Origin: the human T2T-CHM13v2.0 reference genome, Homo sapiens
Assembly (NCBI GenBank): GCA_009914755.4
Contig: CP068257.2
Span: 30,016,001 to 30,080,000 of the forward strand
Reading direction: 5' to 3'
Length of the DNA: 64,000 bases
Part shown: one piece after another, positions 4,421 to 15,911 of the stretch
How positions within the stretch are numbered: the first letter of the stretch is position 1
Layout of the letters: every line of letters starts with the position of its first letter
Made by a program: the position numbers and the translations under genes
The notes under the pieces: model-generated
Seen by the model: only the letters and a program-made list of their open reading frames with translations
Database searches by the model: none
What the model was told of the DNA's origin: nothing

Positions 4421-4896
4421 TCAGATACAGTCTATCCATGTAACAGAATAGTATTCACATATAGAAAGGCACAAATTACAGATAAGTGCTATAACGTGAA
4501 CTGAGCTCTAAAACATCATGCTAAGTACAATAGGCCAGATGCAAAAGACAGTGTATTGTATGATACTATTTACATGAAATGTCCAGAAAGGGCAAATTTA
4601 TTGACAGAAAGCAGGTCAGTGGTTGCCTGCAGCTTGGGGTGGGAGAAGGGATTAAGCAAAAACTACCATGAGGTAAATTGGGCTGATGGAAATGTTTTAA
4701 AACTGCATTGTGCTGGTAGCTGTCAACTACATAAATTTACTTTAAAAATCATTAAAGTGCATGCTTACAAAGGGTGAATTGTATGGTATGTAAATTGTAT
4801 CTTAATAAAACTGTTAAAAAAAAAAAACAAACCAAACCTCCCAGGTTGTGGAGCAGCAATTTTTTTTAAAAGAACAATAACAATAAACCAATGCCT

Positions 4897-5208
4897 CTTT
4901 TTTTTTTTTTTTTTTTTTAGGCAGGGTCTCACTCTGTTGCCCAGGCTGGAGTGCAGAGGTGCGATCTCTGCTCACTGCAACCTCTGCCACCTGAGTTCAA
5001 GCAATTCTGCCACCTCAGTCTCCTGGGTAGCTGAGACTATAGGTGTGTGCCACCATGCCCAGCTAGTTTTTGTATTTTTTGTAGAGTCGGGGTTTTACCA
5101 TGTTGCCCAGGCTGGTCTCAAACTCCTGGGCTGAAGTGATCTGCCCGTCTCCGCCTCCAAAAGTGCTGGGATTATAGGGTTGAACCACCATGCCCAGCCC
5201 CTTTCCTT
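4897..5208 (-). mobile_element. Alu (reverse)
   Basis: poly(T) then gagacgg/ggcagggtctcactctgttgcccaggctggagtgcag...ggctgggcatggtggttc RC. Confidence 0.9.
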
Positions 5209-5822
5209 AAAAACAGAAAGAAGTTGTGAAGCAGAATCATCCTGTCATGATAAAGGTATGACTAAATAATACGTGAAAAACATGCAACTCAATTAACTCT
5301 TCACAAGTGTAATGATCTCAAACAAAATATACTATCCTTCATCTCAACTTAAATACCAATCTTCATGCAATAAGTAAAATCTGCACTGATGAGACTTTTA
5401 AAACAGCAGCCCCACCACATATGAGGCCTATAAACCAAGCTTGTCCAACCCGCAGCCTATGGTGCCTGTGGCCCAGGAAGGCTTTGGGTGCAGCCCAATG
5501 CAAATTCATAAACTTTCTTAAAATGTGAGATTGCCTTTGCGATTTTTTTTTTTTTTTTTTTTTTTTTTTAGCTCACCAGCTATCATTAGTGTTAACGTAT
5601 TTTATGTGTGGCCCAAGACAATTCTTCAAATATAGCCAATTTGAAGCCAATATGGCCCAGGTGATGGGGACCCCTGGGGTTTAAACCGCACAAACTTTAG
5701 GCATTATCATTTCAAGTTTAAGTCTCACCCAACTCCTACCCACCTAGTAGGGTAGAGGTTCATTAAGAAAATTATGTGCCTTAAAGGGAATAGATAATTA
5801 CATTTTTAAAAAACAACTTTGA

Positions 5823-7460
5823 GGCTGGGGGCGGTAGCTCATGCCTATAATCCTAGCACTTGGGGAGGCTGAGGCAGGTGGATTGCTTGAGCCCAGGAGT
5901 TCTAAATGAGCTTGGGCAACATAGGGAGACCCCATCTCTACCAAAAAATAAAAAAAAAATTAGCCGGGTGTGTGGGTGCTCACCTGTAGTCCCAGTGAGA
6001 GGTGACAGCATGCTGGCAGTCCTCAGAGGCCTCACTCGCTCTCGGCACCTCCTCTGCCTGGGCTCCCACTTTGGCAGCACTTGAGGAGCCCTTCAGCCCA
6101 CCGCTGCACTGTGGGAGCCCCTTTCTGGGCTGGCCAAGGCCGGAGCTGGCTCCCTCAGCTTGCAAGGAGGTGTGGAGGGAGAGGCATGAGCGGGAACAGG
6201 GGCTGTGCGGGCACTTCCGGGCCAGCTGGAGCTCCAGGTGTGCGTGGGCTTGGCGGGCCCCGCACTCGGAGCAGCCGGCAGGCCCTGCCGGCCCCATGCA
6301 ATGAGGGGCTTAGCACCAGGGCCAGCGGCTGTGGAGGCCCTGTACTCAGAGCAGTGCCGCCCACCGGCACTGGGCTCGATTTCTCACCGGCCTTAGCTGC
6401 CTCCCTGCGGGGCATGGCTCGGGACCTGCAGCCCGCCATGCCTGAGCCTCCCCCTCTCTGTGGGCTGCTGTGCTGCCGGAGCCTCCCCGACAAGCACCGC
6501 CCCCTGCTCTACGGCGCCCAGTCCCATCGACGACCCAAGGGCTGAGGAGTGCGGGTGCACGGCATGGGAGTGGCAGGCAGCTCCACCTGCAGCCCAGGTG
6601 CGGGATCCACTGGGTGACGCCAGCTGGGCTCCTGAGTTTAGTGGGGACCTGCAGAACCTTTATGTCTAGCTAAGGGATTGTAAATGCACCAATCGGCACC
6701 CTGTGTCTAGCTCAGGGTTTGTGAATGCACGAATCGACACTCTGTATCTAGCTACTCTGGTGGGGAGGTGGAGAACCTTTGTGTCTAGCTCAGGGATTGT
6801 AAACACACCAATCAGCGCCCTGTCAAAACAGACCACTCGGCTCTACCAATCAGCAGGATGTGGGTGGGGCCAGATAAAAGAATAAAAGCAGGCTGCCTGA
6901 GCCAGCAGTGGCAAGCTGCTTGGGTCCCCTTCCATACTGTGGAAGCTTTGTCTTTCTTTGCAATAAATCTTGCTGCTGCTCACTCTTTGGGTCCACACTG
7001 CCTTTATGAGCTGTAACACTCACCACGAAGGTCTGCAGCTTCACTGCTGAAGCCAATGAGACCACGAACCCCCCGGGAGGAATGAACAACTTGAGACGCG
7101 CTGCCTTAAGAGCTGTAACACTCACCGCGAAGGTCTGCAGCTTCACTCCTGAGCCAGCGAGACCACAAACCCACCAGAAGGAAGAAACTCCGAACACATC
7201 TGAACATCAGAAGGAACAAACTCCGGACACGCCACCTTTAAGAACTGTAACACTCACCGCGAGGGTCCACGGCTTCATTCTTGAAGTCAGTGAGACCAAG
7301 AACCCACCAATTCCGGACACACCAGCTACTAGGGAGGCTGAGGTGAGGGGATCACCTGAATCCAGGAAGTCGAGGGTGCAGTGAGCCGAGATCATGCCGT
7401 TACACTCCAGCCTGAGTGACAGAGTGAGATCTTGTGTCAAAAAAACAGAACAAAATAAAA
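5823..7460 (+). mobile_element. Alu (+) split by the LTR12C insertion (halves 5823-5995 and 7322-7460)
   Basis: ggctgggggcggtagctcatgcctataatcc...gtagtcccag | LTR | ccagctactagggaggctgagg...poly(A). Confidence 0.8.
5996..7321 (+). mobile_element. Solo LTR12C (HERV9 LTR), sense-oriented, inserted into an Alu with 4-5 bp target duplication (ccag)
   Basis: Starts TG..., ends ...CA; GC-rich 5' half; tandem tgtctagctcagggattgtaaatgcaccaatc CCAAT-box repeats; aataaaagcaggctg and gcaataaatcttgctgctgctcactctttgg poly(A) region; ctgtaacactcaccgcgaaggtc repeats; flanking Alu halves 5823-5995 and 7322-7460 rejoin perfectly. Confidence 0.8.
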
Positions 7461-8234
7461 CAAGAACGTTGAATAGGCTGTGTGTTAATTCTGAGATGGA
7501 GTCCAGACTTAAGAATGATCCTGAGGCTTAGACCCATATCCAAGAGGATGATTCCAGCCTGGCACTTATAGGTTCTTCAGGCACTTCAGATGCACCCTGT
7601 CCTGAATTAAGCCCTTTGTCCTTGAACCTGCTTTCCTTGGTAAACAGCACCAAGGGGGCTAGAAACCTGGGGGCTGCCCTTACCTTCCCTCTCTCACCAT
7701 GCACCTCTAATGGGTGGCTGGACTTGTGGTTGCATTTCCGTGATCTCCCAGCTTTCTTCCAGTGATGGCCTTAGGTGGGCTCTTATCCTGTCTCCCAAAT
7801 GGCCTCTCTGCCTTGAGTCTCACCCCATCTGCTCTCAGTCCACCCACTGAGCTATTCCAGAGACCATTCTGACTCCCTGTGGACACCCCTCTGGTGGCTT
7901 CTCCTCTCTGTCAGTTAGAAATTGCTTTTGACTGCATGTAACAAATGTGGTTACGCTATTTAACCAAATAAAGGTTTATTTTTCTCGTGATGAAAAGTAC
8001 ACAGATAAGCAGCCTACTTCCATCGATAACCATTGAGGGTTTCTTATGACTCTTACAGCAATGAAATGTGTATTTACAGTATAAAGATATACAATTTTAA
8101 GGTTTTAATATAATTGGGCCTAAGCACAGTATTTTTTGTTTTAGTTTTCAACTGCCCAGGTGATTCTATTGTGCAGCCAGGGTTGATAAACACTGCATCT
8201 AGGCCCAGTGCCTTTGATTTGCAGCTGAGGTCTA

Positions 8235-8392
<158 letters not shown>

Positions 8393-8589
8393 GGTCTACC
8401 TTTTTGCCCACCTTTTAACCACAGAGGTCCCCAAACATGAATTTTCACTCTCAGGAAGGCTGAAATGACACATTACAAGCGGTTTAGTCATCTGCACGTG
8501 CCGCCATCTGATTTAAGGCATCTATTCCTCCTCACCATTCCTGACAAAGTTGAACTGTCTACATGTGCCACATTCTCCTCTTTCTCTAA

Positions 8590-8712
8590 TTCCTTCCCTC
8601 CTTCCCTCCTCCCTTTCTTCCCTCCCTCCCTCCTTCCTTCTTCTTTCTCTTTCTTTTTCTTTCTCTCTTTCTCTTTCTTTCTCTTTCTCTCTCACTCTCT
8701 TTTCTTCTTTCT
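8590..8712. repeat. About 120-nt polypyrimidine (TCCC/CTTT/CT)n mirror-repeat tract (polypurine on - strand)
   Basis: ttccttccctccttccctcctccctttcttccctccctccctccttccttcttctttctctttctttttctttctctctttctc...; a single purine in about 120 nt. Confidence 0.9.
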
Positions 8713-8801
8713 GACAGGGTTTGCCTGTTCTGCTTCTTTAAACCCTGGGGTTCAAGTGCAAAGGTCCCTCTCATCTGATTTCCCTATTTTATTTTATTTA
8801 A

Positions 8802-9068
<267 letters not shown>

Positions 9069-9703: not shown

Positions 9704-10554
9704 TTATTTTTGGTTATCCCAGCCTGGCAGGGAGGGACAGGGTATTACTGGCATCTAGTGAGTAGGGGCTAGGGATTCTACTGAACATCCTACAGTGTAC
9801 AGGACAGCCTCCACAGCAAAGAACTGTCTGGCCCAAAATGTCCATAGTGCCCACATTCGATGCCCTGCATTAGGAAGATATAAATACTCTTAAATATCAC
9901 AGAGTTAAATTCCTTACCCCTGTTCTAGCAGAGATGATATTCTTGCGGGGGGAGCATCTTCTTGGCTTCAACACATTCTTTTCTCCATGGGAGATGATGC
10001 CAGAAGAGGGACAGAACAGGGCCCAGTAAAGCATGGGGCCTGGGGCCAGGGACCCCCTTGTTCAGGTGTGACGACCATCCTACGAAGGCACCACCCAGGC
10101 ATCATTAGACCGTCTCAAAAGAAGAGTAATTCACTGTCCCAAAGCAGCTCTCTCGTGTCTGTGGGCGGATCCCTTGGCAAGTTTACAATGAACTGAAATC
10201 TGCCGAACTTCCTGGAACCCAAAGAAACTTTAGCCTTGGGCAAAGGCCCTTTGGCCAGCATTTGCACTGTTTATGCAACCGTTTAGAATATACGAATTAT
10301 CTGGAGACTACTACCAAATACAACAGGCAAAACTGCAAATATGTATACTTCCTAGAGGATGATAAAAAAATGTGAATTGTATTTCTCTGATAGAGGATGC
10401 ATTAGAGTCTGAGGGTCTAAATAGCGTAAATAATAAATAAGTAAATAAATCGATAGTAGTGTACTCCAAACGAGGCTGGAATAGCTTCTATTGTTGTTTC
10501 ACACTGGACTTCAATTAAGTCTCAGTATTTTGCCATACTCAATATTAAGTACTA

Positions 10555-10858
<304 letters not shown>

Positions 10859-11527
10859 CCCCTCGCCCCGGACAAAAGTAGTTTGCACTATTTTCTCATT
10901 TCACAATATGTTTTTGAAATATTTCCCTTGAAAGGTAAGTCATATTTATCATTCCTGTTGTATGGAGGCATCATAAATTATTTCACCATTCTACCCTCCT
11001 TGAGTGTTGTGGCCTTTAGGCCAGACAAAAACGCAGGTGATGCCTAGAAGCCAACTAGTTGCCGTTTGGTTATCTGTAGGGTTGTGGCCTTGCCAAACAG
11101 GAAAAATATAAAAAGAATACCGAATTCTGCCAACCAAATAAGAAACTCTATACTAAGGACTAAGAAAATTGCAGGGGAAGAAAAGGTAAGTCCCGGGATT
11201 GAGGTGTAGCGACTTTCTATACCCTCAGAAAACTAAAAAACAAGACAAAAAAATGAAAACTACAAAAGCATCCATCTTGGGGCGTCCCAATTGCTGAGTA
11301 ACAAATGAGACGCTGTGGCCAAACTCAGTCATAACTAATGACATTTCTAGACAAAGTGACTTCAGATTTTCAAAGCGTACCCTGTTTACATCATTTTGCC
11401 AATTTCGCGTACTGCAACCGGCGGGCCACGCCCCCGTGAAAAGAAGGTTGTTTTCTCCACATTTCGGGGTTCTGGACGTTTCCCGGCTGCGGGGCGGGGG
11501 GAGTCTCCGGCGCACGCGGCCCCTTGG

Positions 11528-11649
11528 CCCCGCCCCCAGTCATTCCCGGCCACTCGCGACCCGAGGCTGCCGCAGGGGGCGGGCTGAGCGCGTGCGAGGC
11601 GATTGGTTTGGGGCCAGAGTGGGCGAGGCGCGGAGGTCTGGCCTATAAA
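11528..11649 (+). promoter_or_regulatory. SOD1: SOD1 core promoter: GC boxes ccccgccccc (11528-11537) and gggggcggg (11575-11583), inverted CCAAT gattgg (11601-11606), TATAAA (11644-11649)
   Basis: Motifs read directly; TATAAA sits about 25-30 nt upstream of the start of the sequence that matches the SOD1 5'UTR and 105 nt upstream of the ATG. Confidence 0.8.
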
Positions 11650-11671
11650 GTAGTCGCGGAGACGGGGTGCT

Positions 11672-11753
11672 GGTTTGCGTCGTAGTCTCCTGCAGCGTCT
11701 GGGGTTTCCGTTGCAGTCCTCGGAACCAGGACCTCGGCGTGGCCTAGCGAGTT
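11672..11753 (+). other. SOD1: SOD1 5'UTR (TSS approximate, about 25 nt downstream of TATA)
   Basis: Position relative to TATA box and ATG; TSS not determinable exactly from sequence alone. Confidence 0.55.
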
Positions 11754-11825
11754 ATGGCGACGAAGGCCGTGTGCGTGCTGAAGGGCGACGGCCCAGTGCA
11801 GGGCATCATCAATTTCGAGCAGAAG
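11754..11825 (+). CDS. SOD1: SOD1 coding exon 1 ([24 protein letters not shown]), followed by a GC donor (gcaagg)
   Basis: Exact match to SOD1 N-terminus; ORF track 11754 frame; phase-0 end joins exon 2 in frame. Confidence 0.95.
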
Positions 11826-13277
11826 GCAAGGGCTGGGACGGAGGCTTGTTTGCGAGGCCGCTCCCACCCGCTCGTCCCCCCGCGCACCTTTGCTAGGAGC
11901 GGGTCGCCCGCCAGGCCTCGGGGCCGCCCTGGTCCAGCGCCCGGTCCCGGCCCGTGCCGCCCGGTCGGTGCCTTCGCCCCCAGCGGTGCGGTGCCCAAGT
12001 GCTGAGTCACCGGGCGGGCCCGGGCGCGGGGCGTGGGACCGAGGCCGCCGCGGGGCTGGGCCTGCGCGTGGCGGGAGCGCGGGGAGGGATTGCCGCGGGC
12101 CGGGGAGGGGCGGGGGCGGGCGTGCTGCCCTCTGTGGTCCTTGGGCCGCCGCCGCGGGTCTGTCGTGGTGCCTGGAGCGGCTGTGCTCGTCCCTTGCTTG
12201 GCCGTGTTCTCGTTCCTGAGGGTCCCGCGGACACCGAGTGGCGCAGTGCCAGGCCCAGCCCGGGGATGGCGACTGCGCCTGGGCCCGCCTGGTGTCTTCG
12301 CATCCCTCTCCGCTTTCCGGCTTCAGCGCTCTAGGTCAGGGAGTCTTCGCTTTTGTACAGCTCTAAGGCTAGGAATGGTTTTTATATTTTTAAAAGGCTT
12401 TGGAAAACAAAAATACGCAACAGAGACCGTTTGTGTGACACTTTGCAGGGAAGTTTGCTGGCCTCTGTTCTAGGTCATGATTGGGCTGCAAGGGCAGAGA
12501 AGGTAGCCTTGAACAGAGGTCCTTTTCCTCCTCCTAAGCTCCGGGAGCCAGAGGTTTAACTGACCCTTTTGGGGATTTTTGAGGGCAGTGATCTTAACTT
12601 TGGGTGCACAGTTAGCTTATTTGAAGATCTTACTAAAAATACACCAGAGCCCAACCTCCGACCAATTACATCAAAACCTGTCCTAGTGCAGGGTGAGTAT
12701 TGCTGTTTTTTGAAAGTTTCCAAAAGTGATTTTGATGTGCACCTACGATTGAGAACTGTCGTTTGAGGACAGTGGGTGGAGTTTCGTATTTGGAAATTAG
12801 AAGACCTGGAGTTTCCATTACACCGAATTGGCACTTAATAACTGTTGTCGGAGCATTTCTTAAGCCACATTTTCGTAAAGTGGCTTTAAAATTGCTCTGC
12901 CAGTAGGCAGGTTGCTAAGATGGTCAGAGACAAACTTCTGAACGACTCTTGTAAAATATACAGAAATATTTTCAGAACTTTTATCAGTAAAATTACAAAA
13001 CGTGTTGCAAGGAAGGTGCTTGTGATAACACTGTCCCCAGAACCTTAGTGAAGTTACCAACTGGTGGAAAATTTTCTCTTGCACTCGGCTTAAAAATCAT
13101 GAGGGAATATTTACTATACGAATGAGATTCAGTCTTTAAAGGGGTTTACAGAAACGTGAGAGGACAGGAACAGTTAGTCTGTGTAAATGTCTGAAATATA
13201 TGTGAGGGAGATAATGAGTTTAGCCTTTTTCTTTAATAGGTCTCCAGATTTTCTGGAAAAGGTTCTTTGGCATTTGA

Positions 13278-15719: not shown

Positions 15720-15911
<192 letters not shown>

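What the first reader, a model, noticed from the sequence alone, without database searches (positions are those of the whole stretch)
5996..7321. Sense-oriented LTR12C solo LTR nested in an Alu 4.4 kb upstream of the SOD1 TSS
The element is a clean insertion. The flanking Alu halves rejoin, with a 4-5 bp target duplication ccag. It has the same orientation as SOD1 and carries about 4 tandem NF-Y CCAAT boxes (accaatcagc), a TATA-like ataaaagaataaaagc and its own poly(A) signal. LTR12C copies are known cryptic promoters, strongly de-repressed by HDAC or DNMT inhibitors, and frequently drive chimeric transcripts into downstream genes. An LTR-initiated upstream SOD1 isoform, or LTR-dependent enhancer activity, is plausible but unproven.
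Basis: partly seen in the sequence, partly recalled or inferred. Interest (0 to 1): 0.6.

Follow-up and report, generated by a model that had tools for sequence, protein, structure and literature searches.

The report
Known silent LTR12C upstream of SOD1
This is a real, already published solo retroviral LTR (family LTR12C) inserted in an Alu about 4.3 kb upstream of human SOD1; it is normally silent, is copied backwards into the last exon of the non-coding RNA SOD1-DT, and has not been shown to drive SOD1.

Summary
Window 5996-7321 (+) is a solo LTR12C. It aligns end to end with the Dfam LTR12C consensus (93.8% identity), runs TG...CA, and has a 4-bp CCAG target duplication. Removing it restores a gap-free Alu. 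SOD1 lies downstream on the same strand (ATG at 11754).

The core promoter is intact: proximal CCAAT, Sp1-like box, GATA, AATAAAA and the TSS motif GCCAGCAGTGGC. The enhancer is reduced: only 3 of 10 consensus CCAAT boxes survive, about 200 bp of U3 repeats are missing, and half the CpGs are lost.

The element is already published.
- Guerra 2023: it lies in exon 3 of the divergent lncRNA SOD1-DT. Their primers map inside the LTR, and my exon model reproduces their amplicon sizes.
- Ohtani 2024: the row chr21:33026324-33027650 is silent at baseline, barely induced by 5-aza-CdR, and modestly induced by CRISPRa. It gains H3K27ac but not H3K4me3, and SOD1 is absent from the held supplement text, which includes the up-regulated-gene table.

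No LTR-to-SOD1 chimeric transcript is documented. One that skipped exon 1 would lose SOD1's only methionine. Verdict: ordinary, already known, low interest.

The parts
5823..5995 (+). Left part of the host Alu, interrupted by the LTR
   Evidence: once rejoined with 7326-7466 it aligns to other Alus in the window across the junction.
5992..5995 (.). Left copy of the 4-bp target-site duplication CCAG
5996..7321 (+). Solo LTR12C (ERV9/HERV9 LTR), running TG...CA, 1,326 bp
   Evidence: the only BLAST locus for the Dfam LTR12C consensus in the window; end-to-end alignment at 93.8% identity. PMC11317136 Table S1 has the row chr21:33026324-33027650 LTR12C.
5996..6640 (+). GC-rich 5' extension of U3 (about 645 nt), typical of LTR12C/D/E
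   Evidence: aligned to consensus 3-660. GC 0.69. The feature is described in PMC11853044.
6496..6510 (-). CTCF-like motif AGAGCAGGGGGCGGT (2 mismatches to CCASYAGRKGGCRSY), a candidate for the CTCF site seen in the Tc1 mouse
   Evidence: for the motif. The link to the ChIP peak reported in PMC3560060 is inferred.
6641..6856 (+). U3 enhancer: about 4.5 41-bp E repeats plus short CCAAT modules. Intact CCAAT at 6689, 6808, 6846; decayed at 6730 (CGAAT) and 6833 (CCACT). GATA motif TCTGTATCTAGCT at 6741-6753. GTGGGGA at 6641 and 6760.
   Evidence: The consensus has 10 U3 CCAAT boxes. The copy lacks about 200 bp of repeats, plus 24 bp and 11 bp.
6774..6796 (+). Intact target plus PAM of the LTR12C CRISPRa guide #15 (GAACCTTTGTGTCTAGCTCA GGG)
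   Evidence: Guide sequence; window sequence.
6862..6887 (+). Core promoter: Sp1-like GGGTGGGGCC (6862-6871), AGATAA (6872-6877), AATAAAA TATA-like box (6881-6887)
   Evidence: two substitutions against the consensus across the -70..+6 minimal-promoter interval. Roles of the motifs are from PMC11853044.
6901..6912 (+). LTR12C TSS motif GCCAGCAGTGGC (U3/R border), at 68% of the element's length
   Evidence: for the sequence. PMC11853044 gives the motif and its roughly 70% position. Use of this TSS at this copy has not been shown.
6962..6967 (+). AATAAA poly(A) signal in R
6994..7308 (+). U5 with three B-type repeats. Each carries a U7 'HDE-like' motif (7006, 7108, 7240).
   Evidence: The motif is from PMC11417402.
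7322..7325 (.). Right copy of the target-site duplication CCAG
7322..7466 (+). Right part of the host Alu, including its A-rich tail
7340..7348 (+). Consensus-like sense 5' splice site GAG|GTGAGG in the Alu, 22 nt past the LTR (hypothetical use only)
   Evidence: rough PWM score 10.3, against 6-10 for real SOD1 donors and 4.4 or less inside the LTR.
5684..7411 (-). Terminal exon 3 of the lncRNA SOD1-DT. The acceptor is in the antisense Alu (cag|G at 7411). The exon then contains the whole LTR in antisense and extends at least to the published T1 amplicon.
   Evidence: Primers from PMC10453398 map at 7224-7243 and at 5684-5789. The exon model reproduces the 518-, 386- and 106-bp products. That exon 3 is one continuous exon down to 5684 is inferred; only 7411 down to 7224 is shown to be spliced onto exons 1-2.
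9918..10211 (-). SOD1-DT exon 2 (long form; the short form starts at 10079)
11381..11416 (-). 3' part of SOD1-DT exon 1, from the forward primer to the donor
11606..11825 (+). SOD1 exon 1 (TATA at 11644, ATG at 11754, GC donor at 11826)

Best explanation
Window 5996-7321 is a fixed solo LTR12C. It is the remnant of an ERV9 provirus that integrated into an older Alu with a 4-bp duplication and later collapsed by LTR-LTR recombination.

It points the same way as SOD1. It keeps a near-consensus core promoter: proximal CCAAT, Sp1-like box, GATA, AATAAAA and the GCCAGCAGTGGC start motif. Its enhancer is shrunken and half of its CpGs are gone.

In normal human somatic cells it is epigenetically silenced. 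There it acts only as passenger sequence, transcribed backwards as part of the last exon of SOD1-DT, the lncRNA that starts at the bidirectional SOD1 CpG-island promoter.

When repression is lifted it behaves as a weak latent regulatory element. This happens when human chr21 sits in a mouse nucleus or when VP64 is recruited, and only barely with 5-aza-CdR. The element then gains active chromatin marks and a low level of transcripts, with no demonstrated effect on SOD1.

Shown: identity, structure, orientation, antisense inclusion in SOD1-DT, and the published activation data. Inferred: the solo-LTR history, the exact start site, and the lack of any role in normal SOD1 regulation.
For: **Identity and structure.**
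- one full-length + strand match to the LTR12C consensus, 93.8% identity.
- TG...CA termini, a CCAG duplication, and an Alu that is restored without gaps.
- the core promoter and start motif are intact.
- 3 of 10 CCAAT boxes survive and 46 of 90 aligned CpGs are retained.

**Antisense inclusion in SOD1-DT.**
- PMC10453398 places an LTR12C in SOD1-DT exon 3.
- its exon-3 primer lies at 7224-7243 inside U5, and my splice model gives the published 518- and 386-bp products.
- FANTOM5 CAGE supports the divergent promoter for that lncRNA.

**Behaviour when de-repressed.**
- HEK293T reads are 0/0/0 at baseline, 1/5/1 with 5-aza-CdR and 23/28/24 with VP64. dCas9 is bound, H3K27ac is positive and H3K4me3 is not. 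A2780 reads go from 1/1/0 to 49/56/71.
- SOD1 does not occur in the held text of that supplement, which includes the table of up-regulated genes.
Against: - The Tc1 data show that real promoter-type marks (H3K4me3, Pol II) can form here, so a promoter role in some human cell type, such as germ cells, is not excluded.
- The read counts in PMC11317136 carry no strand information in the held table. Some reads could come from SOD1-DT rather than from LTR-initiated RNA.
- Linking the row chr21:33026324-33027650 to the window rests on my recalled hg19 position of SOD1, plus an exact match in length.
- I had no CAGE, ChIP or primate genomes of my own.
- Zero baseline reads in HEK293T also mean that SOD1-DT exon 3 is barely expressed there.
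Confidence: 0.85

Rival explanations
1. Alternative promoter. When de-repressed, the LTR starts sense transcripts at its U3/R border, and these splice into SOD1 to give an LTR-SOD1 chimeric isoform.
For: - Sense orientation and an intact core promoter and start motif.
- H3K4me3 and Pol II at this copy in the Tc1 mouse.
- A strong 5' splice site, GAG|GTGAGG, lies 22 nt past the LTR.
- A hypothetical exon 6907-7342 joined to exon 2 would keep the ATG at 7082 in frame with SOD1 residues 25-154.
- Other LTR12C copies do drive host genes, for example TP63.
Against: - No such transcript appears in any paper or supplement I could search.
- It is not in the review's table of functional LTR12 loci; SOD1 does not occur anywhere in that review.
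- The copy is H3K4me3-negative after CRISPRa, and SOD1 is absent from the held supplement text that includes the up-regulated-gene table.
- The LTR's own AATAAA lies about 55 nt past the start motif.
- There are only weak donors inside the LTR.
- Skipping exon 1 removes the only Met of SOD1, and two upstream ATGs precede the in-frame one.
- Only 3 CCAAT boxes remain, against about 7 on average in HDAC-inhibitor-responsive LTR12s.
Confidence: 0.06
2. Distal enhancer or CTCF boundary. The LTR acts at a distance on the SOD1/SOD1-DT bidirectional promoter without producing a chimeric RNA.
For: - H3K27ac without H3K4me3 after CRISPRa, the 'enhancer-like' class of PMC11317136.
- Latent CTCF binding and CTCF-like motifs at 6496-6510 and 6607-6621.
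- Most NF-Y-bound LTR12 sites classify as enhancers or as unmarked.
Against: - The copy is silent and unbound in human liver, with 0 reads at baseline in HEK293T.
- SOD1 is absent from the held supplement text that includes the genes up-regulated when the LTR is activated.
- The CTCF motif matches are weak, with 2 mismatches each.
- SOD1 already has a strong CpG-island promoter.
Confidence: 0.07
3. Functional RNA domain. The antisense LTR12C U3 segment carried by SOD1-DT binds NF-Y and Sp1 and so contributes to SOD1-DT's reported repression of SOD1 and neighbouring genes.
For: - The whole LTR is antisense in SOD1-DT exon 3.
- Antisense, but not sense, LTR12 U3 RNAs are reported to sequester NF-Y, Sp1 and p53.
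- SOD1-DT is described as nuclear and chromatin-enriched, and its knockdown raises SOD1 (abstract and section titles).
- The SOD1 promoter has an inverted CCAAT box at 11602-11606.
Against: - This is a purely inferential chain with no binding data for this RNA.
- Only 3 intact CCAAT units remain.
- SOD1-DT is a low-abundance RNA, about 0.5-2 TPM in brain.
Confidence: 0.05

Closest known systems
LTR12C (solo LTR of ERV9/HERV9, ERV1 class), Dfam consensus as printed in PMC11317136 Fig. S1
   Same: - Collinear over the full length at 93.8% identity.
- TG...CA termini and a 4-bp duplication.
- About 645-nt 5' extension, 41-bp E repeats with CCAAT, GATA and GTGGGGA motifs, and an Sp1-like box.
- AATAAAA, the GCCAGCAGTGGC start motif at about 70% of the length, AATAAA in R, and B repeats in U5.
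   Different: - 1,326 bp against 1,579 bp in the consensus.
- About 200 bp of E repeats are missing, along with two short CCAAT modules or parts of them.
- 3 of 10 CCAAT boxes are intact and half of the CpGs have decayed.
- About 4.5 E units, slightly below the 5-17 range quoted for the family.
LTR12C promoter of the germ-line TP63 isoform (GTA-p63)
   Same: - A sense-oriented LTR12C upstream of a host gene.
- The start lies at the R-U5 region of the LTR.
- The splice donor is supplied by a neighbouring repeat rather than by the LTR. For TP63 that repeat is a LINE. Here an Alu carries a strong but unproven donor.
   Different: - For TP63 the chimeric RNA, its translation start and its induction by DNMT and HDAC inhibitors are demonstrated.
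- For SOD1 none of these is reported, and exon 1 carries the only Met.
[quoted passage not shown]
   Same: A solo ERV9 LTR upstream of a gene cluster, whose U3 CCAAT and GATA repeats bind NF-Y and GATA-2.
   Different: - The globin LTR has 14 U3 repeats and proven erythroid enhancer activity.
- This copy has about 4.5 repeats, is silent in the human tissues examined, and has no proven target.
LTR12C partly encoding an antisense lncRNA (CDKN2A-AS1 in Table 1 of PMC11853044)
   Same: LTR12C sequence contributes exonic sequence to a lncRNA next to a protein-coding gene.
   Different: Here the lncRNA starts at the host gene's bidirectional CpG-island promoter and merely runs through the LTR in antisense. 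The LTR is not its promoter.

Membership tests
LTR12C (ERV9 solo LTR) | Full-length collinear similarity to the LTR12C consensus | tested here: met
   consensus positions 2-1579 against window 5995-7321 (+), with 1242/1324 identical columns. There is no other hit in the window.
LTR12C (ERV9 solo LTR) | Retroviral LTR termini (5'-TG...CA-3') flanked by a short target-site duplication. For a solo LTR, there is no internal ERV sequence. | tested here: met
   TG at 5996, CA at 7320-7321, CCAG on both sides, and Alu sequence directly on both sides.
LTR12C (ERV9 solo LTR) | U3 with about 41-bp tandem E repeats carrying CCAAT, GATA and GTGGGGA motifs, and U5 with B repeats | tested here: met
   a 41-bp period at 6663-6754, repeat family D2 at 6641-6823, and three U5 repeats at 6994-7308. 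The repeat number is low (about 4.5).
LTR12C (ERV9 solo LTR) | About 600-nt 5' extension shared by LTR12C/D/E | tested here: met
   5996-6640 aligns to consensus 3-660. The feature is described.
LTR12C (ERV9 solo LTR) | Start motif GCCAGCAGTGGC at about 70% of the length, with AATAAAA about 30 nt upstream | tested here: met
   the motif lies at 6901-6912 (68%) and AATAAAA at 6881-6887.
LTR12C (ERV9 solo LTR) | Better match to LTR12C than to the sister subfamilies LTR12, LTR12B, LTR12D, LTR12E and LTR12F | not testable with these tools
   No sister consensus sequences were available. Three publications based on RepeatMasker label this copy LTR12C.
Active LTR12C promoter driving a host gene (TINAT or alternative-promoter type) | Transcription initiates at the LTR start site | not testable with these tools
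   No CAGE data were available here. Published data show H3K4me3 and Pol II only in the Tc1 mouse. The copy is H3K4me3-negative after CRISPRa in HEK293T.
Active LTR12C promoter driving a host gene (TINAT or alternative-promoter type) | A spliced chimeric transcript joins the LTR-derived exon to host-gene exons | tested here: inconclusive
   The sequence allows it (donor at 7343). No such RNA is reported in the searchable literature.
Active LTR12C promoter driving a host gene (TINAT or alternative-promoter type) | Host-gene expression rises when the LTR is activated | tested here: not met
   SOD1 does not occur in the held text of the PMC11317136 supplement, which includes the table of genes up-regulated after LTR12C CRISPRa. 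Caveats: the file was cut when stored, and only HEK293T was tested.
Transposable element exonised in a lncRNA (SOD1-DT exon 3) | Published transcript-specific primers and splice junctions place the element inside an exon | tested here: met
   the exon-3 primer lies at 7224-7243 inside U5, and the predicted amplicons of 518, 386 and 106 bp equal the published sizes. The paper states that an LTR12C is in exon 3.

The most novel reading that the evidence does not exclude
The relevant activity of this LTR may lie in its antisense RNA copy rather than in its sense promoter. SOD1-DT carries the whole LTR12C backwards in its last exon. Antisense LTR12 U3 RNAs are reported to sequester NF-Y and Sp1. 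SOD1-DT could therefore dampen the CCAAT- and GC-box-dependent SOD1 promoter in cis through this retroviral segment. That would tie a hominoid-specific insertion to SOD1 dosage.
Probability: 0.06. Interest if true: 0.55.

Novelty: already known. Interest (0 to 1): 0.15.

Why it matters
SOD1 dosage matters for ALS and for antisense-oligonucleotide therapy, so any primate-specific control element near it is worth knowing about.

This particular element is already annotated. It has served as a showcase of 'latent regulatory potential' (Ward 2013), is described as part of SOD1-DT (Guerra 2023), and is tabulated in a CRISPRa screen (Ohtani 2024).

This check adds three things:
- A base-level anatomy: which promoter motifs survive and which CCAAT boxes are dead.
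- A splice model that places the LTR antisense in SOD1-DT exon 3.
- The point that an LTR-to-exon-2 transcript could not encode normal SOD1.

It would matter only if the LTR, or its antisense RNA copy, were shown to change SOD1 output in neurons or germ cells.

Tried and rejected
- **Brocks 2017 TINAT paper (PMC6005702).** Not held, so I could not check CAGE start sites after DNMT or HDAC inhibition.
- **Supplements of the ZNF676/LTR12 paper and of Kronung 2016.** No SOD1 and none of the coordinate strings I searched for this locus. This is uninformative rather than negative, because the Kronung file covers only 22 LTR12s.
- **The LTR12C locus down-regulated in ALS (ERV_2964235, PMC11233923).** I could not place it on the genome, so I did not link it to this copy.
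- **CTCF motif scan.** Only 2-mismatch matches inside the LTR, which is suggestive at best.
- **Sister subfamilies.** Discrimination against LTR12D and LTR12E was not possible without their consensus sequences.
- **SOD1-DT 3' end.** No AATAAA or ATTAAA on the minus strand between 7411 and 4800. The LTR therefore does not supply a canonical antisense poly(A) signal, and the true 3' end of SOD1-DT stays open.
- **A 5-bp duplication.** Rejected: CCCAG on the left against ACCAG on the right.
- **Sense splice-donor scoring.** I used a PWM recalled from memory, so treat it as a rough ranking only.
- **Dating.** Non-CpG divergence is K2P 0.034. That gives very roughly 15-30 million years depending on the rate assumed, and I could not check it against primate orthologues.
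Full report
**Locus.** The window is the human SOD1 locus. SOD1 exon 1 is found with 0 mismatches, with the ATG at 11754 on the + strand. It is preceded by the TATA box at 11644 and a CpG island. All five coding exons map and together encode wild-type SOD1.

- The element starts with TGAGAGG at 5996 and ends with GGACACA at 7321.
- CCAG occurs immediately before it (5992-5995) and after it (7322-7325).
- After removing the LTR and one CCAG, the two flanks form one Alu. This Alu aligns across the junction to 23 other Alus in the window. Of the 16 strongest junction-spanning hits, 13 have no gap within 12 nt of the join.
- This is therefore a clean insertion into an older Alu with a 4-bp duplication. 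It is a solo LTR, because Alu sequence abuts both ends.

**Family.** A paper supplement (PMC11317136, Fig. S1) prints the complete Dfam LTR12C consensus.
- BLAST of that consensus against the window gives one locus, 5995-7321 on the + strand, covering consensus positions 2-1579.
- A global alignment is collinear from end to end, with 1242 of 1324 aligned columns identical, or 93.8%.
- Of 82 mismatches, 44 lie at consensus CpG positions. Only 46 of 90 aligned CpGs survive.
- Non-CpG divergence is 3.3% (K2P 0.034).
- On rates I assume, that puts the insertion very roughly 15-30 million years ago. This is compatible with the hominoid-era expansion described for ERV9. I could not check primate orthologues.

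**Anatomy (criteria taken from the LTR12 review PMC11853044).**
- 5996-6640: the GC-rich 5' extension typical of LTR12C/D/E.
- 6641-6856: the E-repeat enhancer (41-bp period).
- 6862-6887: Sp1-like GGGTGGGGCC, AGATAA and AATAAAA.
- 6901-6912: the exact start motif GCCAGCAGTGGC, at 68% of the element's length.
- 6962-6967: AATAAA.
- 6994-7308: three U5 repeats.

The minimal promoter region differs from the consensus by only two substitutions. The enhancer is reduced:
- About 200 bp of E repeats, plus 24 bp and 11 bp of the proximal CCAAT cluster, are absent.
- Two CCAAT boxes are mutated (CGAAT at 6730, CCACT at 6833).
- Only 3 of the consensus's 10 U3 CCAAT boxes remain.
- HDAC-inhibitor-responsive LTR12s average about seven predicted NF-Y sites.

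**The element is already published.**
- Ward et al. [quoted passage not shown] SOD1'. It is bound by CTCF and marked by H3K4me3 and Pol II in the liver of mice carrying human chromosome 21, but not in human liver. In the same study 5-aza treatment, but not trichostatin A, activated the latent sites tested in HepG2.
- Guerra et al. 2023 (PMC10453398) state that an LTR12C is in exon 3 of the divergent lncRNA SOD1-DT.
- Ohtani et al. 2024 (PMC11317136, Table S1) list 'chr21 33026324 33027650 LTR12C'. Its length equals the BLAST extent of this element. Its position is the one I predicted in advance from my recalled hg19 coordinate of SOD1.
  - HEK293T reads: PBS 0/0/0; 5-aza-CdR 1/5/1; non-targeting VP64 0/0/2; LTR12C-targeting VP64 23/28/24; p300 0/5/3.
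  - dCas9-HA is bound, H3K27ac is positive, and the H3K4me3 column is empty.
  - A2780 reads go from 1/1/0 to 49/56/71.
  - The target of the guide they found most efficient, with its PAM, is intact at 6774-6796.
  - SOD1 does not occur in the held text of that supplement, which includes the table of up-regulated genes.

**The documented transcript over the LTR is antisense.** I mapped the published SOD1-DT primers.
- The exon-1 primer lies at 11397-11416 on the minus strand.
- The exon-3 primer lies at 7224-7243, inside LTR U5.
- The 'T1' amplicon lies at 5684-5789, beyond the LTR and the left Alu arm.
- The minus-strand splice sites I read from the sequence are: exon 1 donor after 11381; exon 2 acceptors at 10211 or 10079; exon 2 donor after 9918; and the exon 3 acceptor cag|G at 7411 in the antisense Alu.
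- With these sites the predicted amplicons are 518, 386 and 106 bp, exactly as published.
- Exon 3 therefore enters through the Alu and runs through the LTR in antisense. That it covers the entire LTR down to 5684 is inferred from the T1 amplicon and the paper's statement.
- FANTOM5 CAGE supports the bidirectional SOD1 promoter as the origin of this lncRNA.

**Could the LTR drive SOD1?** The sequence does not forbid it.
- Donors inside R/U5 are weak. A consensus-like donor, GAG|GTGAGG, sits in the Alu 22 nt past the LTR (rough PWM).
- A hypothetical exon 6907-7342 joined to exon 2 (15774) would keep the ATG at 7082 in frame with residues 25-154.

Several points argue against it.
- The LTR's own poly(A) signal lies about 55 nt past the start motif.
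- Two upstream ATGs precede the in-frame one.
- SOD1's only Met is in exon 1, so no normal protein could result.
- The copy stays H3K4me3-negative on CRISPRa.
- I found no report of such an RNA.
- SOD1 does not occur anywhere in the review whose Table 1 lists functional LTR12 loci.

**Conclusion.** This is a correctly described, ordinary and already published solo LTR12C. It is silent in normal tissues, is passively exonised in antisense by SOD1-DT, and has weak latent promoter or enhancer capacity that shows only under artificial de-repression.

The least conventional reading my evidence leaves open concerns the antisense U3 segment of SOD1-DT. It might act as an NF-Y/Sp1 decoy at the CCAAT-containing SOD1 promoter. 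That is speculation and needs RIP and deletion experiments.

Noticed in passing
window 7340-7348 (+): The right Alu arm carries a consensus-like 5' splice site, GAG|GTGAGG, 22 nt downstream of the LTR. Combined with the LTR start motif, it would define a 436-nt first exon whose ATG at 7082 is in frame with SOD1 exon 2. This is purely hypothetical.
   Followed up: partly
window 11826-11831 (+): SOD1 intron 1 begins with GC (AAG|gcaagg) rather than GT, and exon 2 starts at 15774 after ttaaag. I recall this GC donor as a known feature of SOD1.
   Followed up: partly
window 7006-7020, 7108-7122, 7240-7254 (+): The LTR's U5 repeats hold three copies of the U7 snRNA-complementary 'HDE-like' motif AAGAGCTGTAACACT, with 1, 0 and 1 mismatches. 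This motif is reported to mediate U7-dependent repression of LTR12s. None occurs elsewhere in the window.
   Followed up: partly
window 4800-7411 (-), A-run at about 5544-5570: There is no AATAAA or ATTAAA on the minus strand anywhere downstream of the SOD1-DT exon 3 acceptor. A genomic run of about 27 A on that strand lies just past the T1 amplicon. The annotated cDNA end might therefore reflect internal oligo-dT priming.
   Followed up: partly
window 10054-10074 (+): The published SOD1-DT exon-2 reverse primer (CCCTTGTTTCAGGTGTGACGA) matches the window only with 3 mismatches, in effect a 1-nt shift (CCCCTTGTTCAGG...). This is either a typo in the paper or a sequence variant.
   Followed up: no
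window about 8600-8740 (purine-rich on the minus strand): A long GA/GGA-rich low-complexity tract lies in SOD1-DT intron 2. It coincides with the strong negative GC and AT skew at 8501-9000.
   Followed up: no
window 11602-11606 (-) and 11399-11403 (+): CCAAT boxes flank the bidirectional SOD1/SOD1-DT promoter. One is inverted just upstream of the SOD1 TATA box. The other lies inside the SOD1-DT exon-1 primer site.
   Followed up: no
window 5545-5570 (+): A poly-T run of about 26 nt lies immediately upstream of unique sequence. It is not obviously the tail of an Alu or L1, and its origin was not determined.
   Followed up: no
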